Assembly (NCBI GenBank): GCA_965248925.1
Contig: CBDFLE010000006.1
Span: 4,992,001 to 5,056,000, forward strand
Length of the DNA: 64,000 bases
Reading direction: 5' to 3'
Origin: Candidatus Multivoradales bacterium
Lineage (GTDB): Bacteria > Acidobacteriota > Thermoanaerobaculia > Multivoradales > J023
Shown: piece by piece, positions 2,299 to 28,367 of the stretch
How positions within the stretch are numbered: the first letter of the stretch is position 1
How the letters are laid out: every line of letters begins with the position of its first letter
The notes under the pieces: generated by a model
Told to the model about the DNA's origin: nothing
Databases searched by the model: none
Seen by the model: only the letters and a program-made list of their open reading frames with translations
Translations under genes and position numbers: made by a program

Positions 2299-2311
2299 CA
2301 GGGAAGCCTCC

Positions 2312-3567: not shown

Positions 3568-3586
3568 GGTGGTGCTACCTGCTCAG

Positions 3587-3877
3587 CTACATGTTGGAGA
3601 CTTCGTCTGGCAGCCGGTAGTCCGCGGCGTGGCGGTAGCTCTTGTCGGCGGCCGGATCGAAGAGTTCGTCGTGATTCTCCGGCTGTGAAGCGATGATGTG
3701 CGCGGAGCGCACCACCCACAGGCTCTCGCCCTCTTGGCGCCGGGTGAAGAGGTCGCGGGCGCCCTGCAGGGCAAGTTCGCCGTCGGCGGCGTGGACGGTG
3801 CCGACGTGACTGTGGCTGACTCCGCGATGGCTGCGGACGAAGACCTCCCAAGCAGGCTGGCCACTATCGCCGCTCAT
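3587..3877 (-). CDS. paaB: phenylacetyl-CoA epoxidase subunit PaaB
   Basis: WEVFVRS..G..H.HVG.VHAAD...A...ARD.FTRR.EG.SLWVV; ATGA overlap with paaA. Confidence 0.95.
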
Positions 3878-6868: not shown

Positions 6869-6992
6869 GCGGGTGTGCTCTCCTCGCGAATCAGGGGCTT
6901 GGGGTGTGACGGTCATGATACTCCATTCCTGGAGTCTGTTCCAGCTGCGTATCATGTTGTGCTGGCGTAGAATCGCGGCTTTGCGGGGTAAG

Positions 6993-13914: not shown

Positions 13915-13968
13915 GTGAAAGCGGGGCACGCAGGAAAACGAACGTCAGTAGAAGGGAAAAGAGGAAAA

Positions 13969-14244
13969 GTGGCCGGCTATATATTCGAGTGGGACGCGGT
14001 AAAGGCCGCGCGGAACAGGCGGAAGCACCGGGTCACGTTCGATGAGGCCACGACGGTCTTCGCCGATCCGCTGAGCATGCTTCGGGCCGATCCCGACCAT
14101 TCTCACACCGAGCAACGGTTCATTGTACTTGGTATGTCAAGTCAGCACCGGTTGCTTGTGGTAGCCTTCCTTGAACGATCTCCTCGCACCCGCCTGATTA
14201 CCGCAAGGCGGGCGACGCGGAAGGAGCGGCGGCAGTATGAATAG
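13969..14244 (+). CDS. brnT: BrnT-family toxin
   Basis: FEWD..KA..N..KH.VTF.EA..VF.DP...E.RF..LG...RLITARRAT..ER..Y. Confidence 0.9.
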   Translation: MAGYIFEWDAVKAARNRRKHRVTFDEATTVFADPLSMLRADPDHSHTEQRFIVLGMSSQHRLLVVAFLERSPRTRLITARRATRKERRQYE

Positions 14245-14669: not shown

Positions 14670-16922
14670 TCACAAAATCTCCACCACCACCGCCCCCCGC
14701 ACCTTCGCCATACAAGCCAGGCGGCAGGAGCCGGCTTCTAGATCGCAGATGTCTTCCAGAGTCTCGGCTTCGCCGTCGGTGGCTTCGGCGGCCAGGTTTT
14801 CTTGGCCGCTGAGGATGCGGATGGGGTCGCTGCCGCAGATGCCGGCGTGGCATTCGGCGGAGATCTTGATGCCGTTGGCTTCGGCGATCTCGCAGATGGT
14901 CTGGCCGGGCTCGGCGGCGCAAATTTGGCCGCTGGGTTGGAAAGTGACCGAGGGGCCATCGCTGGTGACGGCTGGCGGAGTTGCTGGCAGGGGCTGGATG
15001 GCGGTGACGTGCTTGGCCGGGCCTTGCTCGCTATCGTGGACGGTGTCGCGATTGGTGGTGAAAAGGAACTTCTGGCTGCCGGCGCGGAAGCGGTCACCCT
15101 CTTGCAGGTGGACGGCGTTGCGCACTCGCAGGAAGGTGCCGTTGACGCTTTTCAGGTCTTTGGCCAGCAGCTGGCCGCCGCTGACGGTCAACGCTAGCTG
15201 GCGGCGGGAGAGGGTGCCGTCGTCGGCGTCGAGCACGAAGTCGGGGGCGCGGCGGCCGAGCACGCTGGTGCCGGGGCGTAGGATGTGTTGGCCGAGTTCG
15301 CGGCCGCTGGAGTCGTAGTGGGTGAAGGCCCAGCTGTCGCCACTGCCGGCGAAGAGCAAGAATTGCCGGCCGGCGCGTAGCAGGTCACCGTTCGACAGGG
15401 TGATCTTGCGCTGGCTCGGCAGGTAGAGGAAGAGGCCGCTGTCGGAACCGTCGTCGCGCAGCATGCAGCCTTCTTCGGTGTGAGTGACCGAGGCGTGGCG
15501 CGGAGCTAGCAGGGTGTCGGTGGGGAAGTCTAGATCGCAGCCTGAGCGACCGATGGTGCAAACGTCGTGCGGCTCGATGCCGTGTTCGGATCCTTCGACG
15601 CCGCCGGGCAGGAGGCGGATCAGCCAGGCGACGGCGCTGCTCGGCCGGCGGTCGCGCTCGAGGCTGGCCGGCGGCGGGCCTGACGATGCCTCGGGGGCGA
15701 GGGAGGGCAGGGCGGCGAGGTCGTATTCGGGCTCTTCGGCGTCTTCTAGCGTGACTTCGATGTCGGTTTTGCCAGCCAGGCGTTGGGCCACCACTTCGGC
15801 GACGAAGACGCCGTCGCGCAGCGCCGATTTGATGTTGCCACGGTGTTTGACCTCGCGGAAATCAGCCGGGTCGGCGGCGAAATCCTCGGTTTCGAAATAT
15901 GCTTGGCTGAGCATGTCACCAATCAGATAGACGTTGGCTTGCTCGCTCTCGAGCAGGCGGTTGACCACCATGCGCCGGCGGTTGCGGGGGCCGCCCTGCG
16001 CCATGTGGATGCCGAGTTCGGCGAGCAGCTTTTCCGGGATGTCTTCGCCGATGCAAGCGATGCAGCTCTCTTTGGCAAGTTCGAGATGGACGCTCTCCGC
16101 CGGCCGATCGGCCATCTGGCGTCGGTCGATACGAATCGACAAATAGTCGCGGCGATCTTCGCCGGTGACCACCGCGGTGGGTTCGCTGCGCGGGTAGTAG
16201 CGGATGTTGCCGTTGCCGATGTAAGCCTCGAAGAAAACCTCGGCCAATGCCTTCGAGACTCGTGGCATGCGGTCGCCGCGGTAGCTCCAATAGACCGAGG
16301 TCTTGTCGTCGGCGGCGAATTTGGCTTGGGAGATGGCGATGACCGATTCGGCGGCTGAAGTACCGCCGCCGATCACGCAGGCGGGCTGGCCAACAAAGCG
16401 CTGGGGATCGTCGAGGCGGAAGGCGATGCCATCGGTGTTGCCCGGAATGTCGAAGCGGCGGGGCACGCCGCGGCCGATGGCCAACACCAGGTGGCGGGTC
16501 AACAGGGAGACCTCGCGGCGCTCGCCGTGGTGCCAGGCGATGACTCGCAGCAGACCGTCGTCGCGGCGCTCGAGGCCGGTGAGTTCGAGGCCGATCTGGC
16601 GCGGAACTTGGTGGCGCTGGTAGGAGGCTTTCCACTCGACGCACATATCGTCTTTGTCGATCGGCGCAAAACACAGGCAGTCGATCAGTTCACCCGCCTT
16701 GGGGAAGCACATGGCGTCGCCACCACCGAAACTGGGCAGGATCAGCTTGTCTTTGGAGTAATCGCGGATACGCTTCATCAAGTCGTCGAATTCGATCACC
16801 ATCGCGTCGAGGCCGAGTTCCTTGGCGCGGAAGGCGGCGGCGGTGCCTCCAGGGCCGCCACCGACGATCAGCAGATCGTGTACCGCTGGCTGCGGTGGGT
16901 CGCTGTTCGGGGTCTCAGTCAT
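14670..16922 (-). CDS. TrxR-like FAD/NAD(P)H oxidoreductase fused to two FHA domains and a [2Fe-2S] ferredoxin
   Basis: IVGGGPGG, LAIGR.G, VIGGGTSA+SYR, YLIGD; FHA motifs IGRS...LAPRHA and LGRR...LSRRQ...SVNGT; CHAGICGSD...RLAC. Confidence 0.85.
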   Translation of the reverse strand: MTETPNSDPPQPAVHDLLIVGGGPGGTAAAFRAKELGLDAMVIEFDDLMKRIRDYSKDKLILPSFGGGDAMCFPKAGELIDCLCFAPIDKDDMCVEWKASYQRHQVPRQIGLELTGLERRDDGLLRVIAWHHGERREVSLLTRHLVLAIGRGVPRRFDIPGNTDGIAFRLDDPQRFVGQPACVIGGGTSAAESVIAISQAKFAADDKTSVYWSYRGDRMPRVSKALAEVFFEAYIGNGNIRYYPRSEPTAVVTGEDRRDYLSIRIDRRQMADRPAESVHLELAKESCIACIGEDIPEKLLAELGIHMAQGGPRNRRRMVVNRLLESEQANVYLIGDMLSQAYFETEDFAADPADFREVKHRGNIKSALRDGVFVAEVVAQRLAGKTDIEVTLEDAEEPEYDLAALPSLAPEASSGPPPASLERDRRPSSAVAWLIRLLPGGVEGSEHGIEPHDVCTIGRSGCDLDFPTDTLLAPRHASVTHTEEGCMLRDDGSDSGLFLYLPSQRKITLSNGDLLRAGRQFLLFAGSGDSWAFTHYDSSGRELGQHILRPGTSVLGRRAPDFVLDADDGTLSRRQLALTVSGGQLLAKDLKSVNGTFLRVRNAVHLQEGDRFRAGSQKFLFTTNRDTVHDSEQGPAKHVTAIQPLPATPPAVTSDGPSVTFQPSGQICAAEPGQTICEIAEANGIKISAECHAGICGSDPIRILSGQENLAAEATDGEAETLEDICDLEAGSCRLACMAKVRGAVVVEIL

Positions 16923-17938
16923 CGCTCACTGCCTCCGCTACTGGCTGGGTCTTTCTCGGCTAGGTCCTTCTCGGTCGGATCGGCCTCGATCCAAATCAGC
17001 CGAGCTTCGAGTTCGCCGAAGTGGATCTCGCTGCCGACCTCTACCACGGTGGGTTGGTCGATCGCCTGGCCGGCGACAAAAGTCTTGTTCTGACTTCCCA
17101 GGTCGCTCACCGTCACCTGCTCGCCCTGGCGGTGGAGGACGGCGTGGCGGCGCGATAGGGAAGGACTGTCGAGCTGGATCTGTGCCTTACGGCCGCGGCC
17201 GAGCAGATTGTCGCCCGGCTCCAAGATGAACCTCTGGCGGCTGCTGTCAGCGGTTTGAATCTCCAGAGCGGGGACCCGTGTCGGGGGTTCTTCGGCAGGG
17301 GAGTCGCTGCTGGCGAGGCCCTCGCTGAACAGCTCGTCGAGCCCTTTCTTGGGTTTGGCAAAGGGCGAAGTCGGCGGGTCGGTCGGCCCTGTGGATGGCT
17401 CTGTGGTCGGTTCTGTGGATGGCGCCGTGGCCGGGGCGCCTAGGTTCTGTGGTATCTGGAAGGGGAGCTGTTCAATGCGGGTGCCTTCCTGGTCAACCGG
17501 CTTCTTGGGCAGCGGGATCATGCTGGGAACTTGCAGCGGCTGCTGCTCGATCTGGGTGACCCCGAGAGGGTCGCTGGGGGCGGTGCCCGCAGTGGGCTCG
17601 ACCACGTCGGCTCGGGCGCTCGCCGGGGCGCTGGTGGGTTGCAGGTCTTGGAAGACGAAATCGAGTTCCTTGGCCAGGGTGATGACATGCAAGTGACCGA
17701 GGCGTTCGGCCCTTTGCACCCGCAGACCGTCGAGTTCGGTGCCGTTCAGGCTGTCGAGGTCTTCGAGGCGGTAGCAGCCGTTGTCGCTGTCCCACTTCAG
17801 GCGCGCGTGGTGGTTCGAAATCAGGCCGCTGTCGAGCGCTATTTCGTTGTCCGCGGAGCGGCCAATACGAGCTTCGCTGGCGATTTCGAACGAGGCTCCG
17901 GCGTGTTCACCCACTTTGCAGAACAGCCTGGCACGCAT
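16919..17938 (-). CDS. double FHA-domain protein with Pro/Thr-rich linker
   Basis: IGRSADN...ISNHHA...SLNGT and LGRG...LSRRHA...SQNKT; start placed at MRARLF. Confidence 0.9.
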   Translation of the reverse strand: MRARLFCKVGEHAGASFEIASEARIGRSADNEIALDSGLISNHHARLKWDSDNGCYRLEDLDSLNGTELDGLRVQRAERLGHLHVITLAKELDFVFQDLQPTSAPASARADVVEPTAGTAPSDPLGVTQIEQQPLQVPSMIPLPKKPVDQEGTRIEQLPFQIPQNLGAPATAPSTEPTTEPSTGPTDPPTSPFAKPKKGLDELFSEGLASSDSPAEEPPTRVPALEIQTADSSRQRFILEPGDNLLGRGRKAQIQLDSPSLSRRHAVLHRQGEQVTVSDLGSQNKTFVAGQAIDQPTVVEVGSEIHFGELEARLIWIEADPTEKDLAEKDPASSGGSER

Positions 17939-17967
17939 GATTCTTGGGCCCCTCTCAGATTTTCGTT

Positions 17968-19542
17968 TCAGTCCAGATAGAGCAGCAGGTCGGCGTGGTG
18001 GCTCTTGTCCGGGTGGAAACTGTGGCAAGTGATGCAGCTATCAGACGCCAGCCGCGGATTGTGACACTGCTGACAGGTCTCGATCGGTGGCAGGTTGTGC
18101 ACCGATGCCAGATCGCCGCTGGTGTCGACCTCGCTGTCGGCCAAAGCAGCGGCGATGGGAATCTGCGAGTGGCAGTCCAGGCAGCGCAATTCGAGGATGT
18201 GGGCGCCGTGGTTGAATTCGGCGCGGCGCAGGGTCTGCTGGTTCTTTTGTACCCGCACCAGAGTGCCGTCCCGCAGCTGGTGGCACTGCTGGCAGGGCTG
18301 GCTGATCTGGCCGATCAATTCTTCGATCTCCGCGGCTCGCTCGGCGCTGACCTCGTCGCGCCGCGCGCGGCTTTCGGCGAAGAGGAACTGACTCTCGTCG
18401 AGGGGGGTGAAGGGATCGCGCAAGGCTTGTCGCAAACTGCGCAGCTGGGCGTCGATCTGGCTCAGTTCTTGTTGGATCAGCGGTTCCGGGCGACCCCGCA
18501 GGACGAGGGCGAGCAGCTCCAGATTGTCGATCGCTTCCTGATAGAGCTCGCCGAGTTGGTGCGGTGCCACGTCGGCGGTGGTGGTCAGCAGGTCGGCGAG
18601 TTCGGAGCTTTGCCACAGTTGGTCGCGCAAGTGGCGCAGGTTGGTCAGGATCCATGGGTCGCGGTGGTGGATGACTTTCTTGATCACCCGCGAGCCCACC
18701 TCTTGGAATTCGGCCGCGCTGGTGTAGTCGGCCCAGCGACTGGCCGGGTCGTGGCGCTGGCGGATCATCGCCAAGGTTTCGACTCCTGGAGGCTGATCTT
18801 CGGCGCGGCCGATCGGCAGGCGAGGGGTCCGTACCGCGGTATCCAGATGGCAAGCATCGCAGCTGCGATCGAAGTCGATCGGTGCGAAGTTCTTACCGTC
18901 GGCGAGGGGCTGGTGGCAAGCCAGACAGCTGCGTTCGACATCGATCCATCCCTGGCGTTCGCTGATCTCTCGCACATGGCGGATATGGCCAAAGCTCAGT
19001 CCAGCGCCGTCGGGGATGTTGTCGGCGATGACATCGAATTGGGGGTGCTGGTCGCCGAACGAGCCGAATTGGTGGCAGTCGAGGCAGCGCGAGTCGGCCA
19101 CCTGAGTGATGTTGGCGTCGCGACCCCGATGCTCGGGATGGCAAGCGGCGCAGGGGCTTTCACCGTCGCGACTCTCGAGACGCTGGAAGTCGTTTGAACG
19201 GTAGAGGTAGTGAGCCGAGAAAGTGTAGATGCCGAGCTCGTCGCCGGTTTTTTCGTGGCAGCTGGAACATGCCTGGTTGGTGACCCGTGAATCCTGGTGG
19301 CAGGCGGCGCAGTCGTTTTCCAACACCGCATGATTCGACGATAGGGGGCCACTGGAGACGAATTTTGCCTGACCCAAGAAGAAGTCGGTTGCCGCCCACG
19401 CGAGCAGCGCGACCGCCAGCAGAGCACCCAGCCATAGCAATTTGGATGTCGAGGCCAGTCGCGGGTAGCGAGTGGCCACCGGCAGCCGGGCCTTGCCGAA
19501 AGTGCCTTTGCGCCCGCGTTGATTGTTGGAATCACTCATCAC
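17968..19542 (-). CDS. membrane-anchored decaheme c-type cytochrome
   Basis: 10 CXXCH; N-terminal TM anchor; c3/c7-like F.H..H distal-His motifs. Confidence 0.9.
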   Translation of the reverse strand: MMSDSNNQRGRKGTFGKARLPVATRYPRLASTSKLLWLGALLAVALLAWAATDFFLGQAKFVSSGPLSSNHAVLENDCAACHQDSRVTNQACSSCHEKTGDELGIYTFSAHYLYRSNDFQRLESRDGESPCAACHPEHRGRDANITQVADSRCLDCHQFGSFGDQHPQFDVIADNIPDGAGLSFGHIRHVREISERQGWIDVERSCLACHQPLADGKNFAPIDFDRSCDACHLDTAVRTPRLPIGRAEDQPPGVETLAMIRQRHDPASRWADYTSAAEFQEVGSRVIKKVIHHRDPWILTNLRHLRDQLWQSSELADLLTTTADVAPHQLGELYQEAIDNLELLALVLRGRPEPLIQQELSQIDAQLRSLRQALRDPFTPLDESQFLFAESRARRDEVSAERAAEIEELIGQISQPCQQCHQLRDGTLVRVQKNQQTLRRAEFNHGAHILELRCLDCHSQIPIAAALADSEVDTSGDLASVHNLPPIETCQQCHNPRLASDSCITCHSFHPDKSHHADLLLYLD

Positions 19543-19573
19543 TCATCTTTCGCTCATCAGTAGAGCACTACCC

Positions 19574-20425
19574 TCAGTAGAGCACCACCATCGCAATGTG
19601 CAGAACGATCAACGCCAACACCGCCAGGGAAATCGGCACATGCAGGTAGAGCCAGACACGCAGCACTGGTTGCAGAGTGTAGTGGGCGTCGATCTCGAGT
19701 TTAGCGCGGTAGAGGTGTTCGAGTTCTGCCAGGCGTTGACGCTCTTCACCGGCCAGGAAGCGCGCCAGGTATTCGAACTCCTTGAGCTTGTTGTTGAGAC
19801 CGCCGGTGATGTCGACAAAGTAGGCCAGCCGGCGCCGCGGCTGGCTCAGGGTGGCGGCGACCTGGTGTTCGTAGAGCCGCCGCACCGGCTCGCTAGCCGC
19901 CACCGCCAGAGCCTCGGCCTGGCGGCGAATATCTTCGGTGAGTTCGGGAATGCGCTGGTAGTTGATCTCGGTCCACAGGCCAGAGGACAGCACTTTGGGA
20001 ATCCACCGCTGCAGCACGACGCCTACCAGTCCGCTGAGAACGGTCCACAAGCTCAGCCCCCACAGCCAGAGATTGAGAGCGCCGGTGGGCAGACGGAAAG
20101 CGCTGTGCATCAGCAACAGCAGGGCGAAGAGCAGACCGCCGTAAAGGTGAAAATCCAGCCAAGCACGGGCGCTGCCCAGCCGCCGTCGCGACACCCAGCG
20201 CATCAGCCGCCGGCGAGCGCCATAGAGCGCCACCCCGAGGCAGAGCAGGGCAGCGGCGATACCCCAGCCGATACCCCAGGCATTGCCCGGACGCACTTCA
20301 CCGAAGCCAAGCTGCCACAGGTAACTCAGCACGCAGAGCAAGGAGACCACGCCGAAGGTGAGTAGCGAATTCCGCGATCCGCCCAAGCCGTAGCGCTGGC
20401 CAAGTCGCCGCGGAACTTTGTTCAT
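19574..20425 (-). CDS. integral membrane protein, probable di-heme cytochrome b / ferric-reductase-like
   Basis: ~7 TM helices; His in WLDFHLY, LMHS, WLYLHVP, VLHI; ATGA overlap with the upstream gene. Confidence 0.7.
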   Translation of the reverse strand: MNKVPRRLGQRYGLGGSRNSLLTFGVVSLLCVLSYLWQLGFGEVRPGNAWGIGWGIAAALLCLGVALYGARRRLMRWVSRRRLGSARAWLDFHLYGGLLFALLLLMHSAFRLPTGALNLWLWGLSLWTVLSGLVGVVLQRWIPKVLSSGLWTEINYQRIPELTEDIRRQAEALAVAASEPVRRLYEHQVAATLSQPRRRLAYFVDITGGLNNKLKEFEYLARFLAGEERQRLAELEHLYRAKLEIDAHYTLQPVLRVWLYLHVPISLAVLALIVLHIAMVVLY

Positions 20426-22062: not shown

Positions 22063-24710
22063 GGGGTCTCTCCTTGGGAGCGAATCGCGGCGTAAAGCAG
22101 TTCGAGCCGACGTTTGAGCTGCACCAGAGCTTGCTCGATCGGCGTCGAGGAGTCGAGGGCGGGGAAGGGGGGCAGCTCGATGCTGCCCAAGCGTCGACTG
22201 ATCGGCTCGGCCCCGCCACCGTCGGCTGGGGGTGATGTTGGCCGCGGCTTGGGGATCTCCAAGATATTGCTGGGCTTTCGAGTGTTGAGTGTCCCTCGCC
22301 GCCGGCGGCCACCGCGCTTCTCCAGGGCGCGGTCAAAGGCCGCCACCAGTTCAACGGTCGGGGTCAGCGGCGCTTGCCAGTGGCGTACTGAGGCCATGCC
22401 CCCAGCGTAGTCGAAATCGGCGCCGGTCGGGTGGCCGGCCGAGACCAGGCGCTGTTCGGTGATGTAGTGGCAGCTGTTGCAGCGGGTGGCGCGAACCGGC
22501 AGATCCTTGAGCCTCACCATGCCGATCTCGAGGGCCTTCAAGTAGCCAGGGCGGCGCGTGCCGAGGGCCTTATCACCTTCTTGATGTGGTTCCAGATAGT
22601 CCCCCGCTGGACCGTGGCAACTCTCACAACCGACCCCGGCTTGCGCTTCGCGGCGCTCCTTGCCGGTGACCACTGAGCCGTGGCAATCCATGCAGATCTG
22701 ATTGCCGCGGGTGATCTCGCCGCTCGCCAAGCCGAATAAGCGAGCGATGCGAAGAGCCTTGGGGTCGCCGCTGAGGAGACCGTCAGCGGAGCTGTAGTGG
22801 CGATCGTCAAACCACCAGGCATTCTCCTCCTTGTGGCAACCGCTGCAAGCGCCAGGGCCTCGGCTGGCGTGGGGTGAGAGTGGATGAACGCGAGTGTTCT
22901 TGGCTCCCACCACCTTGGCTTGCACAGCTCTTTCGCTAGTCTGCTCACTGGTCGGTGGAGTCGCCGTGGCCGATTCGTCAGCTGGTTGGGTCGCTGGATC
23001 CTCGCTGGTGGCAGGGGCCGGCTCAGCCAGGGGGTTCAACAGCGTTGGATCGCGGGCTGGCACCGGTCCCCGCTCGGCCAGGGCGCTGCTGAAGGCGGCT
23101 TGCAGAACCGTCGAGGAGGCCAACGGGTGCTGCCAGTGGCGCACTCGCGCCATGCCGCCGACAAAGTCGAAATCGTTGCCGTCGGGATGGCCGGTGGCGA
23201 TCAGCTTGCGGTCGGTGATGTAGTGACAGCTGGTGCAGGTCTGGGCACGGCGTGCGTGATCCTTGAGTTCGGTCATGCCCAGGCCGAGGGCGGCGATGTA
23301 GCCCGGACGCTTCAGGCCGAGGGCCTTGTCGCCCTCGCGATGGGCTTCGATGTAGCCGCCGGCCGGGCCATGGCAGCTCTCACAGCTGGCGCCGTCCTGG
23401 ACTTCGCGGGCCAGTTTGGCCGAAGCCGCGGTGCCATGGCAGCCCATGCAGGCCGATGTGCCGCGGGCCATCTCCTCCGCGCTCAAACCATAGAGCCTGG
23501 CGATCTCCAAGTTGCGCGGCTCTCGATCGAGAAAGGGCTCGATCGAAGCAGCGTGCGGATCCTCGAGCCACCAAACGTTCTGCTCAGCATGGCAGCCGCT
23601 GCAGGCGGCCTGGCCCAGGGTCGGAAAGTCGTGGCTGACCGGGCGTGGTCCGATGCTTGGAGTGGGGGCGGTGGTAGCGCTCCGAGTGCCGCCAGAGCCG
23701 TTTTCGGCGCGGGCCACCGGCGCGGCGGTACCGTCGAGCAGTGGATCGAGGGCAGCGAGCTGTTGGCCGTCGTGGCGGTCGAGCAGGCGGCGGCCGGCCT
23801 GGTCGATGCGGTCGGCGGCGGCCAGCAGCGCGGTGCGGTTGTCGAGTCCGACGGTCAGGCCGCGTACCGCCTTCAGCATCTCATCGACTTCGCTGAGTTC
23901 GACGCTGGTCGCAATCGCCCGCAGCTCGGCGGCGGCATTGCGCTGGCGGCGGGTCATCGCTTTCAGGTAGATCCCCGGCCGGCTGGCGGCGGCCACCCCG
24001 CGCAAGCTGTACTCGAGGTCCAGGGTGCGGCCGACCACATACATCAGCCGTCGCCGCGCCGCGCCGCGCAGGGCGTTGTCGCTGCCGTCGCCGTTGAGAA
24101 AGCTGGTCAGGAAGTTGTGGCGGATGTCGCCCTGGGTCCACTCGACCAGCTCAAAACCGCCGCTGCCGCTGGTATGACCGCCAATATTGACCAGGCCCTC
24201 GTAGGGCACCGTGTGGCAAGCGAAACAAGTGGCCGCCACGTCGTAGAGGTCCGAGGGGCGCCGCATGCCAGCTTGACGGCTCTCAAGGATGCGCTGGGAG
24301 CGGTGCTCAGCGGTTTCGCTGCGGTGGTCAAGACCCTTGCCACCATAGTCGTTGTGCAGCTCGATCCACGACTTGCCGGCGCCGTGGCAGGACTCGCAGG
24401 ACACTCCCGATGCGGCCCGCACCTCATCCCCTTTCAGGGTCGGAGTGTAATGGCAATTCAGGCATAGGCTGTCGCGTTTGATCAGCTTGAAGCCCATTTT
24501 TTCGGCGATCTTGGTGGCGCTCTCTTTGCGGTGCAGAGTCTTGAAACCGGTGGCGTGGGGGGTTCGATTCCACACCTCGTATTCGGCGACGTGGCATTCG
24601 CCGCAAGCCTCGACTTGGGCGAAGTCCTGCGGCGGCTGGCGGGAGTAGGCTTCGGAACTCGGCTGAGCCAGGGCGCGGTGGGCGAGACCGCAGCCCAGCG
24701 CTAAGGCCAA
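22059..24710 (-). CDS. 12-heme cytochrome c built from three c554-like tetraheme repeats
   Basis: 12 CXXCH in three blocks, each containing CESCHG; signal-peptide-like N-terminus (ALA-Q); start uncertain (TTG 24710 or CTG 24755). Confidence 0.9.
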   Translation of the reverse strand: MALALGCGLAHRALAQPSSEAYSRQPPQDFAQVEACGECHVAEYEVWNRTPHATGFKTLHRKESATKIAEKMGFKLIKRDSLCLNCHYTPTLKGDEVRAASGVSCESCHGAGKSWIELHNDYGGKGLDHRSETAEHRSQRILESRQAGMRRPSDLYDVAATCFACHTVPYEGLVNIGGHTSGSGGFELVEWTQGDIRHNFLTSFLNGDGSDNALRGAARRRLMYVVGRTLDLEYSLRGVAAASRPGIYLKAMTRRQRNAAAELRAIATSVELSEVDEMLKAVRGLTVGLDNRTALLAAADRIDQAGRRLLDRHDGQQLAALDPLLDGTAAPVARAENGSGGTRSATTAPTPSIGPRPVSHDFPTLGQAACSGCHAEQNVWWLEDPHAASIEPFLDREPRNLEIARLYGLSAEEMARGTSACMGCHGTAASAKLAREVQDGASCESCHGPAGGYIEAHREGDKALGLKRPGYIAALGLGMTELKDHARRAQTCTSCHYITDRKLIATGHPDGNDFDFVGGMARVRHWQHPLASSTVLQAAFSSALAERGPVPARDPTLLNPLAEPAPATSEDPATQPADESATATPPTSEQTSERAVQAKVVGAKNTRVHPLSPHASRGPGACSGCHKEENAWWFDDRHYSSADGLLSGDPKALRIARLFGLASGEITRGNQICMDCHGSVVTGKERREAQAGVGCESCHGPAGDYLEPHQEGDKALGTRRPGYLKALEIGMVRLKDLPVRATRCNSCHYITEQRLVSAGHPTGADFDYAGGMASVRHWQAPLTPTVELVAAFDRALEKRGGRRRRGTLNTRKPSNILEIPKPRPTSPPADGGGAEPISRRLGSIELPPFPALDSSTPIEQALVQLKRRLELLYAAIRSQGETP

Positions 24711-24751
24711 GCACCACAGAGCACGGGTCGGCGAAGCCAGGGACTCGTCGG

Positions 24752-26323
24752 TCAGAATTTCACCACCAACTCAAGGCGGCCGCCGAAGGGTGTTTGGTCG
24801 CCGCCGGCCCGCTGGCGTTGACTGATAAACGCGTCAGTGACCACCAGCACTCGACGACCGAAGGCGGCTTGGTAGCGCGCGGTCAGACCGTAGGAGTCCT
24901 CGACCGCGTCTTCCAGTCCCAGCCGAGCGGCAACTTCGACCACCAGCTGCCGTCGGCTGTGGCCGAGAAACTTCTGGTAGCCGATAGCTCCGCCGACCAC
25001 ATCTTGCGCCAGATTGCTCAGTGGAGCGCCGTAGCTACCCAGGCCGACCGCCGCGAAGTTGATGCCGACGCGGCCCAAAGGGCCACCGGCCGCGGGGCCG
25101 CGAGCTGCCGAGGAAAAACGGTCGAAGGCCACGAAGTTGTTGATGTAGAAAAGATCCGAAGTGTAGGCCGGGGTCCACGAAAGTTCACTCATCAACAGAG
25201 TGCCATTGCCGCTGAATGGGGTTTCTTCATCGATGGCGAACGAACTCAGCAGGCGGAACGAAGAGCTGGTCTTGCCGAAGCGTTGCACCGCCGAGATTCC
25301 GGCCACTGCCAGGTCGCCCGCCAGGCTGTCGGAGCGCACGTAGGCGAGGTCGACATCGAAGGTCGAGCGTGCGGTGTCGGTCGAGGTGAACAGGGCGAAG
25401 AGTTGGGCGTCCTTGTCTTCTACATTGCCACCTGCCACAGAGCCACGGTGAAGATTGTCCCAACCGTAGAAGAAGGTGGCGCGGAAGTTGGAAGTGTTGG
25501 CTGGCAGCAGGGTGTTGCGGGTGAAGCCGATACCGTCGATGGTGTCGGCGATCAACAATCCTTCCTGAAAAGATATCGGCTGGCGGCCGATCGAGAAGCC
25601 TACATCCAGCGCACCAAAATCCTCACGGTCGAGGTTGGGGAAGATCTCGCCGATGTCACCTTCGAAGTAAAGACTGCTGATTTCGGCATTGAGTTCGCTC
25701 TCGAATTCTCCGTCGAGATTGGCGTCGGGATGCTCGAAGAAGTAGCTGGTAAAGCGCCCGTCCTCGTCGAGAGCCCGCAAGCCCACCACCAGACGTTCGC
25801 TGCCCGACAGTTGCAGGTTGAAGAAGAGGTCGAGCCGATTGGCCCACTCAGTCACCCTCCCCTCGACTCCTTGCAAGTCCGGTTCGAAGGTCTGAATGGC
25901 GCTGCGAAAGGTGCCGAAGGCGAGCAGCGAGGGCTGCCAGACGGCACCGGTGGGCAGGCGAAAACCCGGTTTCAGAGTGCCTGTGCCGAGGAATGGCTCG
26001 CCGAGTTCCAGCAGTGGTTTCGGGCGCTGCGGGAAGCCTTCGAGCTGTAAGGGAATCTCCTCGTCGGAAAAGCGACTCGAATGTCCCCCTTTGCCGTGCT
26101 CCTCCCTGTCTTCTCCGCTATGTTCTTTCTTGGCCTGCTCCGCGTCGCCTTGATCATCCGCGGTCGACTCGCCGCTGTGCGGATCAGTGGAGGAGGGAGT
26201 GGGGTCGTTGGCGGCGTTGGTGGGAGCGGCGAGCAGCAGCAGAATCACCAGAGCAGCATCGATCCACAGCCAGCTCGCTGGCTGGCGACCGCGGGCGGCG
26301 AGAGAGTTGCCGCGATGCTTCAT
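24752..26323 (-). CDS. probable outer-membrane beta-barrel protein
   Basis: signal peptide, long amphipathic beta-strand pattern, terminal RLELVVKF (BAM-type signal); ATGA overlap. Confidence 0.7.
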   Translation of the reverse strand: MKHRGNSLAARGRQPASWLWIDAALVILLLLAAPTNAANDPTPSSTDPHSGESTADDQGDAEQAKKEHSGEDREEHGKGGHSSRFSDEEIPLQLEGFPQRPKPLLELGEPFLGTGTLKPGFRLPTGAVWQPSLLAFGTFRSAIQTFEPDLQGVEGRVTEWANRLDLFFNLQLSGSERLVVGLRALDEDGRFTSYFFEHPDANLDGEFESELNAEISSLYFEGDIGEIFPNLDREDFGALDVGFSIGRQPISFQEGLLIADTIDGIGFTRNTLLPANTSNFRATFFYGWDNLHRGSVAGGNVEDKDAQLFALFTSTDTARSTFDVDLAYVRSDSLAGDLAVAGISAVQRFGKTSSSFRLLSSFAIDEETPFSGNGTLLMSELSWTPAYTSDLFYINNFVAFDRFSSAARGPAAGGPLGRVGINFAAVGLGSYGAPLSNLAQDVVGGAIGYQKFLGHSRRQLVVEVAARLGLEDAVEDSYGLTARYQAAFGRRVLVVTDAFISQRQRAGGDQTPFGGRLELVVKF

Positions 26324-28185
26324 CTTGTGCTCGCTGGCGCGCTGCCGCTTGTGGGTTGATGGTTGGTATTCGCTACCGGAATCTCCAGATCGGTTTCCCA
26401 CAGCACCTGATGCCCTTCTACCACCCGATCGGCCACTTCGCGGGGGCTCAGGAAGTAGTCAAAACCGACAATCTTGATCTCGTTCACCAGGTTGACCGGG
26501 ATCATTCCCGCAATCAGCTGGATGCGCGCCTTATAAGGTGCCTTGCCGGTCAGCTGCTCGGGCCGGATTCGGTACTTGCCGACCCGCTTGCCGCCAGGTG
26601 AAATGCCTCTCTTATGCTTGCGCACCCCAGCCGGTCGGCCGGTGAGAATGGTGGAAGAAGTAGAAGGGCGCAAGAAGGGCAGAGGGTCGGGCGAGTAATT
26701 CAGTGCCAATACTTGCTCGCGCTCGCCGCCGCGAGCCATGCGGGTCATGAATTTGGCTTGCAGACTCAGCAAGTCGCGATCCAGCGGTAGTTCGCCATTG
26801 TGAACATACAGCGAATGTAGGTCGCGAATGTCGCCGTTGGGGTCGAGGTCGCCAGAGCGGTAAACCACCTGGCCGTCGCTGTCGGCTACCGTGACCCGCA
26901 CAAACACCAGTCGTTCGGCGTCGAAGCCGGTTGGCACACTGTGGCCGTTGGTGGCGTTGAGCACCTCGACCTCGAACACCACTCCCCGTTTGGAGTCGGC
27001 CCGGCGGACGGAAATATCGCCGAATTGATAACCGTTTTGCAGGATCTTGAGCCGGTCGCGATCGGCTTCGGCGAGTAGCTCCAGATTGTCGTCGAGAATG
27101 TCGCGCGCATCATAGCGATCGTCGATCGCCGACCAGCGCGGGGGAAATTCGAAGTCCTCAGGCTTGCTGTCTTCGAACTCATCCGTACCCCAGCCGTCGC
27201 GCCACTCGAAGCTCAACCACTCGCGAATGGTGGCTAGCTCCGAAGCCTTGATGTTGTGCGGGAAGATACCGGGGTGGATTACCGAGTAGTCGGGGCCGAT
27301 GAACATGTGGTTGGTGCGTTTGCGCGGCGCGGTCGTCCGCGAGCCGACCAGCGCCGCCGGGGCTTCGGCATAGCCCGAATCGACCCCCGGCACAGTGCTC
27401 ATGTGGCAATCCTGGCAGGACACCCCTTCCTTCGCCGCCGGCGAATGTTTGAATTCGCTGAAGGCTTCCTCAAGGCGAAAACCGTTGACCAGGTTGACAT
27501 CGTGGCAGGTGCCGCAAAAACCTGAAGCGCTGAGTTGAAAGAACTTCTGCGCCTCGGTGTGGATCGCCCGCCCGGCCTTGCCGCGGACCGTGTTGACCCG
27601 GAACTCACTGCTGTTGATCACCCGCTCCAGTTCGTCATTGCCGCTGGGGCCGTACACCGGTTCGAAGAGATCTCCTTCGACAATCGCCAGCCGGCCGCTG
27701 AGCTTGCCGTAGGCCTTGTTGACCCGGTGGCAGACGATACAAGTGACCCCCTCGCGCGATGTTGGATGGCGGTCCATATTGCTCATGAACTCAGGTTCGC
27801 CCAGGTTCATCCCCACCGGCGTGTGGCAGCGGATGCAGAAGTCGCCGTTGGTGCCGTTGGTGATCTTCAGCACCGTGCCGTGAAAAGCGTTGAAAACCGG
27901 GCTCATCTGCGAGTAGGCGTGGGGCGAGACCGACCACTCACGGTAGTGATCAGGGTGGCAGGTGCCGCAAGTCGTAGCGGCTGGAAAGCGGTTCTCCAAG
28001 AACAACAGCTCGTGCTCCTGGTCGGTCGTCGTGGGGGTGTCGGCTTCACTGCTGTCCTGGGCCGCGACCCCTAGCACGAAGAGTGATGGCAGAATTAGCA
28101 ACAGCCATAGCCACCCCTCTCGCTGCTGCCCTGGGCCGCTCCTTGGGTGTCTTCCGTCGCCGCTCCGGATCGCCTGCTCAGTCAT
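26320..28185 (-). CDS. exported pentaheme cytochrome c (c554/c552-like) with C-terminal beta domain
   Basis: CGTCH, CIRCH, CIVCH, CGTCH, CQDCH; W..S.HA; GHSVPTG; N-terminal hydrophobic signal. Confidence 0.9.
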   Translation of the reverse strand: MTEQAIRSGDGRHPRSGPGQQREGWLWLLLILPSLFVLGVAAQDSSEADTPTTTDQEHELLFLENRFPAATTCGTCHPDHYREWSVSPHAYSQMSPVFNAFHGTVLKITNGTNGDFCIRCHTPVGMNLGEPEFMSNMDRHPTSREGVTCIVCHRVNKAYGKLSGRLAIVEGDLFEPVYGPSGNDELERVINSSEFRVNTVRGKAGRAIHTEAQKFFQLSASGFCGTCHDVNLVNGFRLEEAFSEFKHSPAAKEGVSCQDCHMSTVPGVDSGYAEAPAALVGSRTTAPRKRTNHMFIGPDYSVIHPGIFPHNIKASELATIREWLSFEWRDGWGTDEFEDSKPEDFEFPPRWSAIDDRYDARDILDDNLELLAEADRDRLKILQNGYQFGDISVRRADSKRGVVFEVEVLNATNGHSVPTGFDAERLVFVRVTVADSDGQVVYRSGDLDPNGDIRDLHSLYVHNGELPLDRDLLSLQAKFMTRMARGGEREQVLALNYSPDPLPFLRPSTSSTILTGRPAGVRKHKRGISPGGKRVGKYRIRPEQLTGKAPYKARIQLIAGMIPVNLVNEIKIVGFDYFLSPREVADRVVEGHQVLWETDLEIPVANTNHQPTSGSAPASTR

Positions 28186-28225
28186 ACCAACACCGCCTTC
28201 CAGTGGCGCCTTCCAGTAGCGCCTC

Positions 28226-28245
28226 ATATGCGATCAGCTGCATAT
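28226..28245. promoter_or_regulatory. candidate operator ATATGC-N8-GCATAT
   Basis: perfect 6-8-6 inverted repeat ~40 bp upstream of the cytochrome operon, in a divergent intergenic region. Confidence 0.35.
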
Positions 28246-28367
28246 CTAGTTGCTTATGTGGCTGGATGATAACGGCTTCCGCCCTCGTTGGCCAGATTGC
28301 GGAAGGACCATTTAGGCTCTATCGACGGCGAGTTGGTAGCTGCCCATATTTGTGCGAAGATGGTTTT

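What the first reader, a model, noticed from the sequence alone, without database searches (positions are those of the whole stretch)
14670..28185. Candidate undescribed system: signal-gated trans-envelope electron conduit (27 c-hemes) with built-in FHA and cNMP-type domains
Seen: eight co-oriented genes, several coupled by ATGA overlaps. In order: pentaheme cytochrome, probable OM barrel, 12-heme cytochrome, cNMPx2-4x[4Fe-4S] protein, 4-His membrane protein, anchored decaheme cytochrome, FHAx2 protein, and NAD(P)H flavoprotein-FHAx2-[2Fe-2S]. Established: porin-cytochrome conduits (MtrAB, Pcc) move electrons across the envelope, but to my knowledge they do not carry phosphopeptide- or nucleotide-sensing domains on the redox subunits. 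Inference: a path NAD(P)H > FAD > 2Fe-2S > 4Fe-4S > heme b > periplasmic hemes > barrel, whose cytoplasmic end assembles only upon Thr phosphorylation, loosely analogous to NADPH-oxidase activation. Direction and terminal substrate cannot be read from sequence.
Basis: partly seen in the sequence, partly recalled or inferred. Interest (0 to 1): 0.9.

Follow-up and report, generated by a model that had tools for sequence, protein, structure and literature searches.

The report
FHA-equipped variant of ptd cytochrome operon
This is an intact eight-gene redox operon that appears to wire a cytoplasmic NAD(P)H flavoprotein through iron-sulfur clusters, a membrane protein with four conserved histidines and 27 c-type hemes to an outer-membrane barrel; relatives were named ptd in a preprint, its function is untested, and this version carries phosphothreonine-reader domains.

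Summary
There are eight co-oriented minus-strand genes with 27 CxxCH motifs and four ATGA overlaps, and every domain call is confirmed.

The system is not undescribed. Its core matches the ptdABCDEFG operon named in bioRxiv 10.1101/2023.11.21.568154, which states the function is unknown.

What differs here:
- The ptd FNR-type flavoprotein PtdC is replaced by an unrelated TrxR-type flavoprotein-FHAx2-[2Fe-2S] protein plus an FHAx2 protein.
- An orthologous Ser/Thr kinase flanks the cluster in three related loci and lies 4.7 kb away here.

Support for one cytoplasm-to-periplasm chain:
- The membrane protein has two invariant H-x13-H pairs.
- Natural fusions link flavoprotein, FeS, membrane, heme and FHA parts.

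- A complex model scores 0.89 against a best control of 0.00. It places a heme-free hairpin of the pentaheme protein inside the 18-20-strand barrel, so an Mtr-like heme path across the outer membrane is not supported.
- The cNMP-like domains lack the phosphate-binding Arg.

Direction of electron flow and the substrate remain unknown.

The parts
26320..28227 (-). G1, PtdA-like pentaheme cytochrome (635 aa; alternative start at Met15 = 28185). N-terminal five-heme domain, a C-terminal domain, and a conserved hairpin at about residues 494-548.
   Evidence: 5 CxxCH and no other Cys. Cytochrome_C554 E 7e-9. PDB 5ze8 pentaheme c552 E 9.2e-12. 62-75% identical across phyla. Modelled docking to G2 scores 0.89 against a best control of 0.00.
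24752..26323 (-). G2, PtdB-like outer-membrane beta-barrel (523 aa). Signal-like helix, about 85 disordered Asp/Glu/His/Gly-rich residues, then an 18-20-strand barrel ending in ...VVKF.
   Evidence: No Pfam or NCBIfam family. AF2 model. Foldseek finds 265 PDB matches at E<=1e-3, top MOMP, AlgE, OccK and chitoporin. ATGA overlap with G1.
22059..24710 (-). G3, PtdD-like periplasmic cytochrome expanded to 12 hemes (883 aa): three tetraheme c554-like modules.
   Evidence: 12 CxxCH at residues 36-744. Three Cytochrome_C554 stretches. Modules 2 and 3 are 56% identical. Homologues carry 3-10 hemes.
20422..22062 (-). G4, PtdE-like cytoplasmic protein (546 aa): two cNMP-binding-like domains plus a four-cluster [4Fe-4S] domain.
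   Evidence: Pfam. 16 Cys of four motifs invariant in 20 of 20; Q180 replaces the PBC Arg in 20 of 20. Nearest solved FeS domain is HycB3, 7qv7_A, E 1.6e-22.
19574..20425 (-). G5, PtdF-like inner-membrane protein (283 aa): five TM helices, a cytoplasmic helical insert, and two H-x13-H pairs. Probable dihaem cytochrome b.
17968..19542 (-). G6, PtdG-like decaheme cytochrome (524 aa): conserved 35-residue cytoplasmic tail, one TM anchor, periplasmic heme domain.
   Evidence: 10 CxxCH. 10 hemes in 19 of the 22 homologues recovered. Conserved tail motif KG.FG...LPVA..Y seen in the sequences printed.
16919..17938 (-). G7, protein with two canonical FHA domains joined by a Pro/Thr-rich linker (339 aa from ATG 17938; the longest ORF runs to 18028).
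   Evidence: FHA E 5.9e-34, two stretches. Homologues present in the related loci.
14670..16922 (-). G8, TrxR-type FAD/NAD(P)H flavoprotein + degenerate FHA + canonical FHA + [2Fe-2S] domain (750 aa).
   Evidence: Pfam. Invariant C691, C696, D699, C737; FHA-2 residues G556 R557 S572 R573 N594 G595 invariant. Nearest solved structures are TrxR-like, YpdA and TrxR-type FNR. 873 relatives at E<=1e-20, with only generic names among the best 120 listed.
7989..9929 (-). Probable partner Ser/Thr kinase (Pkinase + caspase-like domain), 4.7 kb downstream of G8 beyond a transposase/toxin-antitoxin insert.
   Evidence: Pfam. Kinase domain 49-59% identical to kinases that directly flank the cluster in L015, L021 and L034, against 30-37% to other flanking kinases.
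28266..28294 (-). Single sigma-70-like match upstream of G1. Weak, and no more than chance gives.
   Evidence: 1 found against 1.8 expected.

Best explanation
This is an FHA-equipped variant of the ptd multiheme operon: a fixed, quinone-independent redox chain that links cytoplasmic NAD(P)H to the outer membrane.

The chain, step by step:
- G8 takes electrons from NAD(P)H onto FAD and its own [2Fe-2S] cluster.
- G4 carries them along four [4Fe-4S] clusters to the cytoplasmic face of G5.
- The two bis-His hemes b of G5 move them across the inner membrane.
- The anchored decaheme G6 and the 12-heme G3 carry them across the periplasm to the pentaheme G1.
- G1 is docked on the periplasmic mouth of barrel G2, with a heme-free hairpin inserted in the lumen.

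On this reading the barrel is an anchor and substrate channel for a periplasmic terminal heme enzyme, not a heme-filled conduit. Electron entry is controlled by phosphothreonine: three canonical FHA domains (two in G7, one in G8) read marks written by a dedicated Hanks kinase.

Shown: the genes, motifs, conservation, fusions and models. Inferred: cofactor binding, outward direction, G1 lying on the periplasmic side, and phospho-gating. The substrate is unknown.
For: - Domains and motifs are confirmed.
- All eight genes recur in 15 of 30 loci from several phyla, 12 of them in the same order.
- Four His are invariant in 20 of 20 G5 homologues. The same two H-x13-H motifs are in 4 of 4 distant paralogues and in 6 of 6 classic PtdF-like proteins.
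- Sixteen FeS Cys are invariant in 20 of 20.
- Fusions link the parts. G4-G5 is a single ORF in L016 and L023 and in P0002 and P0041. Related loci encode flavoprotein-cNMP-Fer4, cNMP-Fer4-5TM, FHA-TM-heme and FHA-TM-heme-TM-Fer4-flavoprotein proteins.
- In classic ptd loci, 6 of 6 PtdC candidates are FAD_binding_6 + NAD_binding_1, and 5 of the 6 also carry Fer2. They are unrelated to G8 but have the same predicted chemistry.
- The G1-G2 complex model scores 0.89, 0.89 and 0.90 against a best control of 0.00, with 227-235 contacts, partner pLDDT 87-88 and at least 91% contact agreement between runs. That mark was reached by 116 of 157 solved complexes and 2 of 215 mismatched pairs.
- In that model G1 residues 494-548 touch alternate residues of nearly all barrel strands. 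Heme-domain residues touch the barrel's short turns and its N-terminus.
- A Hanks kinase directly flanks the cluster in 5 of 17 surveyed loci. Those genomes hold only 17-78 Pkinase matches in 4.8-9.3 Mb. Three of the kinases and the window's kinase form one 49-59% identity group.
Against: - No experiment exists on any member. Both preprints state the function is unknown.
- The side of the barrel on which G1 sits is my inference from contact lists and from the recalled rule of short periplasmic turns. I had no coordinates.
- Direction of flow cannot be read from sequence.
- The cNMP-like domains lack the canonical Arg, so one proposed regulatory input is doubtful.
- FHA-1 of G8 is degenerate, and no pThr target is identified.
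- Kinase adjacency is confined to Acidobacteriota loci, which are related by descent.
- G3 has no clear signal peptide at its annotated start.
- The cluster sits between transposases.
Confidence: 0.5

Rival explanations
1. It is an Mtr/Pcc-like porin-cytochrome conduit that passes electrons through the outer membrane to insoluble extracellular acceptors such as Fe(III), Mn(IV) or humics. This is what the first reader and the ptd preprint suggest.
For: The barrel gene is translationally coupled to a multiheme cytochrome gene. There are 27 hemes. Pfam and NCBIfam give weak, sub-threshold similarity to MtrC/MtrF domains and DmsE-family decahemes. The preprint proposes extracellular electron transfer.
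Against: - The barrel resembles 18-strand substrate porins (MOMP, AlgE, OccK), not large cytochrome-sheathing barrels.
- In the complex model the lumen holds a hairpin without any CxxCH.
- No extracellular cytochrome and no quinol dehydrogenase gene lies in the cluster.
- DmsE-family score is 32.5 bits against a cut-off of 192.2.
Confidence: 0.17
2. The chain runs inward. A periplasmic or imported donor is oxidised at G1, and the electrons reach cytoplasmic FeS, flavin and NAD(P)+ (reverse or uptake mode).
For: All cofactors in the chain are reversible carriers. The Ferrigenium preprint places its related nonaheme module in an Fe(II) oxidiser. The ptd preprint reports ptd genes in nitrite oxidisers.
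Against: From my own knowledge: reducing NAD(P)+ (about -320 mV) needs a very low-potential donor, and inward electron movement works against the membrane potential. No coupling-ion or quinone module is present in the cluster.
Confidence: 0.13
3. It is mainly a redox sensor. The heme/FeS chain reports periplasmic or external redox state to the cytoplasm, and the FHA, kinase and cNMP-like domains are the signalling output rather than the gate.
For: Signalling-type domains are built into redox subunits in every variant examined. A response-regulator-kinase fusion and a histidine kinase follow the cluster in L014.
Against: 27 hemes, a dedicated barrel and a highly conserved terminal pentaheme protein (62-75% identity across phyla) are costly for a sensor. 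Classic ptd operons lack FHA yet keep the whole chain.
Confidence: 0.1

Closest known systems
ptdABCDEFG operon (bioRxiv 10.1101/2023.11.21.568154; I read section 8 and passages of the discussion)
   Same: [quoted passage not shown] Function is stated as unknown. Metagenome loci fetched here show that classic layout.
   Different: - PtdC there is an FNR-type FAD_binding_6/NAD_binding_1/Fer2 protein of about 420 aa lying between B and D. Here it is replaced by an unrelated TrxR-type flavoprotein with two FHA domains at the operon end, plus a separate FHAx2 gene.
- PtdD has 12 hemes here, not 4.
- The preprint counts two 4Fe-4S clusters in PtdE; four motifs are invariant here.
- FHA and 2Fe-2S are not mentioned in its main text.
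- Equivalence rests on matching descriptions and on metagenome loci, not on the preprint's own sequences. Its supplementary tables were not readable.
Nonaheme cytochrome module of Ferrigenium straubiae (bioRxiv 10.64898/2026.01.22.701106, section 6.3.2 read)
   Same: Three neighbouring genes: a [4Fe-4S] protein, a 5-TM protein without a known family, and an inner-membrane-anchored multiheme cytochrome carrying a cytosolic FHA domain. This resembles G4-G5-G6/G7 and the compact loci L037-L040.
   Different: No barrel, pentaheme or flavoprotein genes are described there. Its authors saw no redox motif in the 5-TM protein. Homology to the window's proteins was not tested by sequence.
MtrCAB / Pcc porin-cytochrome conduits (recalled knowledge)
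   Same: A barrel gene paired with a multiheme cytochrome gene, and long heme chains in the periplasm.
   Different: The barrel is of the 18-20-strand substrate-porin type. The modelled lumen content is a heme-free hairpin. There is no surface cytochrome, and input comes from cytoplasmic flavin/FeS rather than from quinol.
NADPH oxidase / STEAP / ferric-reductase-domain proteins (motif details recalled)
   Different: No Pfam ferric-reductase match. G5 has five rather than six TM helices. The flavoprotein is a separate protein, with five FeS clusters interposed. The acceptor is a heme c chain.
Tmc / Hmc / DsrMKJOP and NarGHI / FdnGHI-type membrane redox complexes (recalled knowledge)
   Same: A periplasmic multiheme or catalytic subunit is linked through a dihaem cytochrome b to a four-cluster or other FeS protein. 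NCBIfam gives sub-threshold hits to DsrO, HmcB, QrcC, DsrJ and HmcA. FdnI and HyaC are among the structural matches.
   Different: All NCBIfam scores are far below their cut-offs. There is no molybdopterin, CCG or NrfD subunit. G5 matches no solved cytochrome b by sequence.
MccSep/ExtKL polysulfide reductase (bioRxiv 10.1101/2025.11.18.688581; sections 4, 7, 8, 11 read) and the T. tepidum pentaheme c552 (PDB 5ze8)
   Same: A five-heme N-terminal cap plus a C-terminal beta domain with an extended hairpin. MccSep is periplasmic and its substrate's route across the outer membrane is unknown. G1 matches 5ze8 at E 9.2e-12 and the ExtKL model at E 2.8e-12.
   Different: G1 has no Cys outside its CxxCH motifs, so it has no His/Cys heme and no Sec/Cys catalytic residue. 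The ExtKL score is 45.9 bits against a cut-off of 250.

Membership tests
ptd operon (preprint definition) | Pentaheme PtdA with a C-terminal beta domain related to T. tepidum c552, followed by a porin gene | tested here: met
   5 CxxCH. 5ze8 E 9.2e-12, including a third aligned stretch in the C-terminal domain. Barrel model and porin matches.
ptd operon (preprint definition) | PtdC FAD/NAD(P) oxidoreductase between porin and tetraheme genes | tested here: not met
   No gene lies between G2 and G3; the gap is 41 nt. The flavoprotein is last in the operon and is Pyr_redox_2-type with FHA domains. PtdC candidates in classic loci are FAD_binding_6/NAD_binding_1. G8 gave no tblastn hit at 1e-6 in any of the 36 metagenome loci of at least 9 kb that were listed.
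ptd operon (preprint definition) | Tetraheme PtdD, cNMP/FeS PtdE, membrane PtdF and decaheme PtdG in this order | tested here: met
   The order D-E-F-G is kept. PtdD is triplicated to 12 hemes. Classic loci show 4-heme D and 10-heme G.
MtrAB/Pcc porin-cytochrome conduit | Multiheme cytochrome threaded through a large barrel so that hemes span the outer membrane | tested here: not met
   In the complex model the segment in the lumen is G1 residues 494-548, which has no CxxCH. Barrel matches are substrate porins. This rests on a model, not a structure.
MtrAB/Pcc porin-cytochrome conduit | Sequence membership of the periplasmic cytochrome in the MtrA/DmsE family | tested here: not met
   TIGR03508 scores 32.5 bits (G1) and 25.8 bits (G3) against a cut-off of 192.2.
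Ferric-reductase-domain (NOX/STEAP/MsrQ) family | Two bis-His heme b sites formed by paired His on two TM helices | tested here: inconclusive
Four-cluster FeS proteins (DmsB/NrfC/HycB type) | Four Cys motifs binding four cubane clusters | tested here: met
   16 Cys invariant in 20 of 20. HycB3 E 1.6e-22, and NrfC and FdnH also matched. All equivalog NCBIfam scores are below cut-off, so it is a relative of these, not a member of any named enzyme.
Cyclic-nucleotide-binding domain | Phosphate-binding cassette with Gly-Glu and the Arg that holds the cyclic phosphate (motif recalled) | tested here: not met
   The fold family is matched (cNMP_binding E 1.4e-25), but domain 1 reads FGEIGA..GWPQS with Q180 invariant in 20 of 20, and domain 2 has no R-[ST]-A. 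Paralogues in L037, L039 and L040 keep the Arg.
FHA phosphothreonine-binding domain | Conserved Gly-Arg, Ser-x-x-His and Asn-Gly residues (motif recalled) | tested here: met
   Present in both FHA domains of G7 (sequence). Invariant in FHA-2 of G8: G556 R557 S572 R573 N594 G595. FHA-1 of G8 lacks a conserved Arg, Ser and Asn. Peptide binding is untested.
MccSep/ExtKL polysulfide reductase | His/Cys-ligated heme 2 and a catalytic Sec/Cys | tested here: not met
   G1 has 10 Cys, all within CxxCH motifs. No other invariant Cys in 15 homologues. NF040886 scores 45.9 bits against a cut-off of 250.

The most novel reading that the evidence does not exclude
A kinase- and FHA-gated 'electron valve'. 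In this reading a bacterial, NADPH-oxidase-like machine bypasses the quinone pool. When a dedicated Ser/Thr kinase licenses it, it sends NAD(P)H electrons across the inner membrane into a continuous 27-heme wire. That wire spans the whole periplasm to a pentaheme enzyme plugged into its own outer-membrane channel. The same logic recurs in fused compact forms across many phyla.
Probability: 0.3. Interest if true: 0.85.

Novelty: new variant of a known kind. Interest (0 to 1): 0.62.

Why it matters
The 5-TM four-His family is large and carries no Pfam or NCBIfam annotation. The profile search found 4057 representatives at E<=1e-3 among 1.84 billion clustered proteins, and no function is known for any of them.

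If the chain works as proposed, it would be a quinone-independent route between cytoplasmic NAD(P)H and periplasmic multiheme enzymes. It occurs in widespread uncultured soil, sediment and marine bacteria (Acidobacteriota, Gemmatimonadota, Rhodothermales, Nitrospirota, and the marine groups of the ptd preprint). It would also place Ser/Thr-phosphorylation readers directly on respiratory-type subunits, which the Ferrigenium preprint says had not been reported for multiheme cytochromes.

The analysis gives concrete handles for experiment:
- four His residues to mutate;
- a hairpin-in-barrel model to test;
- an orthologous kinase as candidate regulator;
- two unrelated flavoproteins that should be interchangeable.

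Tried and rejected
- Foldseek of the G5 model against the PDB gave no match at E<=1e-3. The G5 profile against PDB sequences had a best E of 0.5. The fold therefore stays unassigned, apart from weak helical-bundle matches.
- RNA evidence: no RNA holder was listed. Four DNA runs from one study hold the stretch.
- Promoter and terminator scan: 1 promoter-like site against 1.8 expected, and 10 terminator-like sites against 9.7 expected. Not informative.
- Earlier notes on this window's surroundings: none.
- The peat Acidobacteriota EET preprint (10.64898/2026.05.27.727921, passages only) describes other porin-cytochrome clusters, with no mention of FHA, cyclic nucleotide or 4Fe-4S. I judged it unrelated.
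- MccSep-type chemistry for G1 is rejected because G1 has no extra Cys.
- A disulfide-reductase role for G8 is rejected. There is no conserved CxxC: only C182 and C290 are invariant in the flavin domain.
- PP2C phosphatase or nucleotide cyclase as conserved neighbours: none was seen among 70 flank ORFs of 17 loci.
- A regex for the G1 hairpin motif found nothing in 6 classic PtdA-like proteins. Whether they have the hairpin is left open.
- One Pfam call failed on a mis-framed reference and was repeated without it.

Full report
**1. What is there**

The minus strand between 14670 and 28227 holds eight tightly packed ORFs. I call them G1 to G8 in transcription order.

| Gene | Coordinates | Product |
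|---|---|---|
| G1 | 26320-28227 | 635 aa, 5 CxxCH |
| G2 | 24752-26323 | 523 aa |
| G3 | 22059-24710 | 883 aa, 12 CxxCH |
| G4 | 20422-22062 | 546 aa |
| G5 | 19574-20425 | 283 aa |
| G6 | 17968-19542 | 524 aa, 10 CxxCH |
| G7 | 16919-17938 | 339 aa (longest ORF runs to 18028) |
| G8 | 14670-16922 | 750 aa |

A script confirmed 27 CxxCH motifs in the three exported cytochromes. It also confirmed ATGA overlaps at G1/G2, G3/G4, G4/G5 and G7/G8.

- c554/c7/c3-type heme families on G1, G3 and G6.
- Two cNMP_binding stretches plus 4Fe-4S dicluster families on G4.
- Two FHA domains on G7.
- Pyr_redox_2, two FHA domains and Fer2 on G8.

G2 and G5 match no family in either library.

The cluster sits in an IS-rich stretch. 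A frameshifted Mutator transposase and a BrnT toxin gene lie downstream. A PIN gene and a Transposase_29 gene lie upstream.

**2. The two unannotated proteins**

*G2.* Folded with 17 homologues, G2 gives a beta-barrel from about residue 120 to the C-terminal ...VVKF (pLDDT 69.7). Before the barrel come a signal-like helix and about 85 disordered residues rich in Asp, Glu, His and Gly. Foldseek finds 265 PDB chains at E<=1e-3. All the top ones are outer-membrane substrate porins: MOMP, AlgE, OccK/OprD and chitoporin.

*G5.* Folded with 20 homologues, G5 gives a confident helical model (pLDDT 89.8). H93, H107, H262 and H276 are invariant in 20 of 20 sequences, forming H-x13-H on the third and the last helix.

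From the charge distribution I read the N-terminus as cytoplasmic and both His-bearing helices as running inside to outside. This is my own inference. It would stack one His pair near each face of the membrane, the classic arrangement for two bis-His hemes b.

The fold evidence is weak:
- Foldseek found nothing at E<=1e-3.
- The family profile matches no solved sequence (best E 0.5).

The family is large. The profile search found 4057 representatives at E<=1e-3, 1823 at E<=1e-10 and 396 at E<=1e-30 among 1.84 billion clustered proteins.

**3. Conservation**

A scan of species-representative genomes with G4 returned 30 loci.
- tblastn with all eight proteins shows hits to all eight in 15 of the 30 loci.
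- 12 of those 15 keep the window's order.
- Two Vicinamibacterales-type loci have the FHAx2 gene upstream. One Nitrospirota locus has G1-G2 inverted.
- Most of the remaining loci are cut by contig ends.

The carriers are MAGs labelled Thermoanaerobaculia, other Acidobacteriota, Gemmatimonadota, Rhodothermales/Salinibacter, Nitrospirota, KSB1 and Zixibacteria.

G1 is the most conserved protein, at 62-75% identity across phyla. G1 always has 5 hemes, and G6 has 10 in 19 of the 22 homologues recovered. G3 varies from 3 to 12 hemes. The window's G3 is three tetraheme modules, and the last two are 56% identical.

In a sample of 201 genomes of the window's own phylum, 36 have a G5-family match at E<=1e-10 and 9 have a strong one below 1e-80. 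The gene is therefore patchy. That tally includes one genome flagged unpublished, G049.

**4. It is already named, but not understood**

A full-text search led to bioRxiv 10.1101/2023.11.21.568154. I read its section 8 and passages of the discussion.

It defines a ptdABCDEFG operon:
- PtdB: porin.
- PtdC: FAD/NAD(P) oxidoreductase.
- PtdD: tetraheme.
- PtdE: cNMP domain protein with 4Fe-4S clusters.
- PtdF: 'ferric reductase-like' membrane protein.
- PtdG: decaheme.

It states that the function 'remains completely unknown'. G1 does match that c552 (PDB 5ze8, E 9.2e-12).

The terms FHA, forkhead and 2Fe-2S do not occur in the preprint's main text. A search for ptdABCDEFG and related terms found no other relevant paper in the library. 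Its supplementary tables could not be read and may hold further domain calls. I recall that it was later published in a journal, but I did not check this.

A second preprint (10.64898/2026.01.22.701106, section 6.3.2 read) describes a three-gene group in Ferrigenium: a [4Fe-4S] protein, a 5-TM protein, and an anchored nonaheme cytochrome with a cytosolic FHA domain. Its function is also unknown.

**5. How this variant differs from classic ptd**

A metagenome scan with the G1 alignment gave 80 loci. Of these, 36 are at least 9 kb long and were analysed.

Many of them show A-B, then a 1.3-1.5 kb gap, then D-E-F-G. The E, F and G proteins are only 23-33% identical to the window's.

G8 gave no hit at 1e-6 in any of the 36 loci. 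G7 gave a hit in one (L043), a close relative of the window's type.

The gap gene, or its counterpart placed after G or after B, is FAD_binding_6 + NAD_binding_1 in 6 of 6 candidates examined. Fer2 is present in 5 of the 6. None has an FHA domain.

So two unrelated flavoproteins with the same predicted chemistry (NAD(P)H, FAD, [2Fe-2S]) occupy the same operon. This is good evidence that an NAD(P)H-linked 2Fe-2S module is the cytoplasmic terminus of the system.

G8's flavin domain is nearest to TrxR-like proteins, YpdA and TrxR-type ferredoxin-NADP reductases. It has no conserved CxxC. Its C-terminal domain keeps C691, C696, D699 and C737. I recall this C-x4-C-G-S-D...C pattern from SdhB-type 2Fe-2S sites, but did not test that.

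G8 relatives number 873 at E<=1e-20. The best 120 listed carry only generic names such as 'FHA domain-containing protein'.

**6. Fusions tie the parts together**

- G4 and G5 are one ORF in a KSB1 locus (823 aa) and in a Nitrospirota locus (828 aa). They are also one protein in two database representatives of 828 and 771 aa.
- In three more distant loci of the window's phylum, a cNMPx2-Fer4-5TM fusion (816-1067 aa) is followed by a protein that starts with an FHA domain, crosses the membrane and carries seven hemes. In two of the three it crosses back and ends in Fer4 plus a Pyr_redox flavoprotein.
- In a fourth locus (L040) the genes encode a Pyr_redox-cNMPx2-Fer4 fusion, a 5-TM protein, and a decaheme protein that ends in two FHA domains.

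All four distant 5-TM domains keep both H-x13-H motifs. So do 6 of 6 classic PtdF-like proteins.

These architectures link flavoprotein to FeS protein, FeS protein to membrane protein, and FHA to anchored cytochrome. They also place FHA on the cytoplasmic side of the cytochrome's anchor.

**7. The outer-membrane end**

| Measure | Result |
|---|---|
| Score, three runs | 0.89, 0.89, 0.90 |
| Best of three controls | 0.00 |
| Contacts | 227-235 |
| Partner pLDDT | 87-88 |
| Contact agreement between runs | at least 91% |
| Calibration: solved complexes reaching the mark | 116 of 157 |
| Calibration: mismatched pairs reaching the mark | 2 of 215 |

The tool's verdict is that the model supports binding but does not show it. 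My own alignments were used, so the calibration holds only roughly.

The G1 residues in contact are mainly 494-548, a conserved stretch (GGEREQVLA.NYSPDPLPFLRPST...LTGRP.G.RKHK) that has no CxxCH. They touch alternating residues of almost every strand, which means the lumen wall.

Heme-domain residues of G1 (122-125, 171-183, 234-270) touch the barrel's short turns and its N-terminal segment.

Outer-membrane barrels end in the periplasm and have short periplasmic turns (recalled rule). From this I infer that G1 sits under the barrel and pushes a heme-free hairpin up the lumen. This is an inference from contact lists; I had no coordinates.

It argues against a heme path through the outer membrane. 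It fits a periplasmic terminal enzyme with a private channel.

A related precedent is MccSep/ExtKL, a periplasmic pentaheme polysulfide reductase with an Ig-like stem and an extended hairpin. Its substrate's route across the outer membrane is unknown (bioRxiv 10.1101/2025.11.18.688581; sections 4, 7, 8, 11 read). G1 cannot use that chemistry, because all ten of its Cys are in CxxCH motifs.

**8. The regulatory parts**

*FHA domains.* Both FHA domains of G7 and the second FHA domain of G8 keep the Gly-Arg, Ser-x-x-His and Asn-Gly residues. The first FHA domain of G8 does not.

*Kinase.* Among 70 flanking ORFs from 17 loci, a Hanks-type kinase directly abuts the cluster in 5 loci: L014, L015, L021, L026 and L034. 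All five are Acidobacteriota. Those genomes hold only 17-78 Pkinase matches in 4.8-9.3 Mb.

The kinases of L015, L021 (the downstream one) and L034 are 49-59% identical in the kinase domain, both to each other and to the window's kinase at 7989-9929. They are only 30-37% identical to the rest. The window's kinase lies 4.7 kb from G8, beyond the transposase and toxin genes. It is therefore a credible partner.

Two cautions apply. The loci are related by descent. And no kinase flanks the Rhodothermales, Gemmatimonadota, Nitrospirota or KSB1 loci.

*cNMP-like domains.* The first domain of G4 reads FGEIGA..GWPQS, with Gln invariant in 20 of 20 sequences where the phosphate-binding Arg should be. 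The second domain has no such motif either. Paralogues in L037, L039 and L040 keep the Arg. Cyclic-nucleotide control is thus plausible for sister modules and doubtful here.

*FeS clusters.* The 16 Cys of four FeS motifs are invariant. G4 therefore carries four clusters, not the two stated in the preprint.

**9. Mechanism and odds**

Best reading, about 0.5: a quinone-independent chain in which electrons pass NAD(P)H > FAD > [2Fe-2S] (G8) > 4x[4Fe-4S] (G4) > 2 hemes b (G5) > 10 + 12 + 5 hemes c (G6, G3, G1). It ends at a barrel-docked periplasmic enzyme. FHA and kinase control the cytoplasmic end.

I favour outward flow on thermodynamic grounds. This rests on my own knowledge, not on any call.

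Rival readings:
- An Mtr-like extracellular conduit (0.17).
- Inward flow from a periplasmic donor (0.13).
- Mainly a redox sensor (0.10).

Nothing here identifies the substrate.

**10. Verdict**

The system is not undescribed, the barrel is probably not a heme conduit, and nucleotide sensing is doubtful.

It is best filed as a new variant of the named but uncharacterised ptd kind. Three features distinguish it: a displaced FHA-bearing flavoprotein, an extra FHAx2 protein, and an associated kinase.

Noticed in passing
window 19545-19585 (minus strand, G5/G6 junction): The last 12 bases of G5 including its stop codon (GTGCTCTACTGA) occur twice in tandem, 6 bases apart, just before the G6 start. 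G6 has a GTG start immediately followed by ATG.
   Followed up: no
window 12341-13611 (+) and 13915-14244 (+): A Mutator-family transposase is split into two overlapping ORFs (probably a frameshift). A BrnT toxin gene lies next to it. Both sit between the operon and its probable kinase, so the insertion may have separated them.
   Followed up: partly
window 1240-6955 (-): Phenylacetate catabolism genes: two PaaA/PaaC-family proteins, an aldehyde dehydrogenase-MaoC fusion (PaaZ-like), and an FAD_binding_6/NAD_binding_1/Fer2 reductase. That reductase has the same domain type as classic PtdC, but here it belongs to the paa genes.
   Followed up: no
window 29708-32101, 36074-40536, 45081-46238: A dense set of mobile elements: a Transposase_29 gene, two IS21-type IstA/IstB pairs in opposite orientation, and a DDE_Tnp_1 transposase. 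The whole region looks like a plastic island.
   Followed up: no
window 7989-9929, 49254-52301, 53955-55607: Three caspase/CHAT-type protease-domain proteins lie in one window: kinase-caspase, TPR-CHAT and Sel1-caspase. An ECF-type sigma factor gene lies at 53086-53781.
   Followed up: no
L016:1684-3381 and L040:11491-13203: HbpS-like proteins of about 565-570 aa lie next to two different variants of the module (a KSB1 locus and a compact locus of the window's phylum). They may be an accessory heme-related component.
   Followed up: no
L037:10288-11418 and L037:13753-17025: In one compact variant, an AAA_2/ClpB-type ATPase gene lies between the FHA-heptaheme gene and the Fer4-flavoprotein gene. 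A large CarboxypepD_reg + OMP_b-brl_4 barrel gene follows.
   Followed up: no
G2 residues 34-117 (window about 25970-26222) and homologues: The N-terminal periplasmic extension of the barrel protein is disordered and rich in His, Asp, Glu and Gly in several phyla (for example HGKGGHSS here and GHGDDGHGESD in Rhodothermales loci). This hints at cation binding.
   Followed up: no
G6 residues 1-35 and homologues: The cytoplasmic tail of the anchored decaheme protein carries a motif conserved across phyla, KG-x-FG-x3-LPVA-x2-Y. It is a candidate docking site for G5, G4 or an FHA domain. The Thr at the third position is not conserved.
   Followed up: partly
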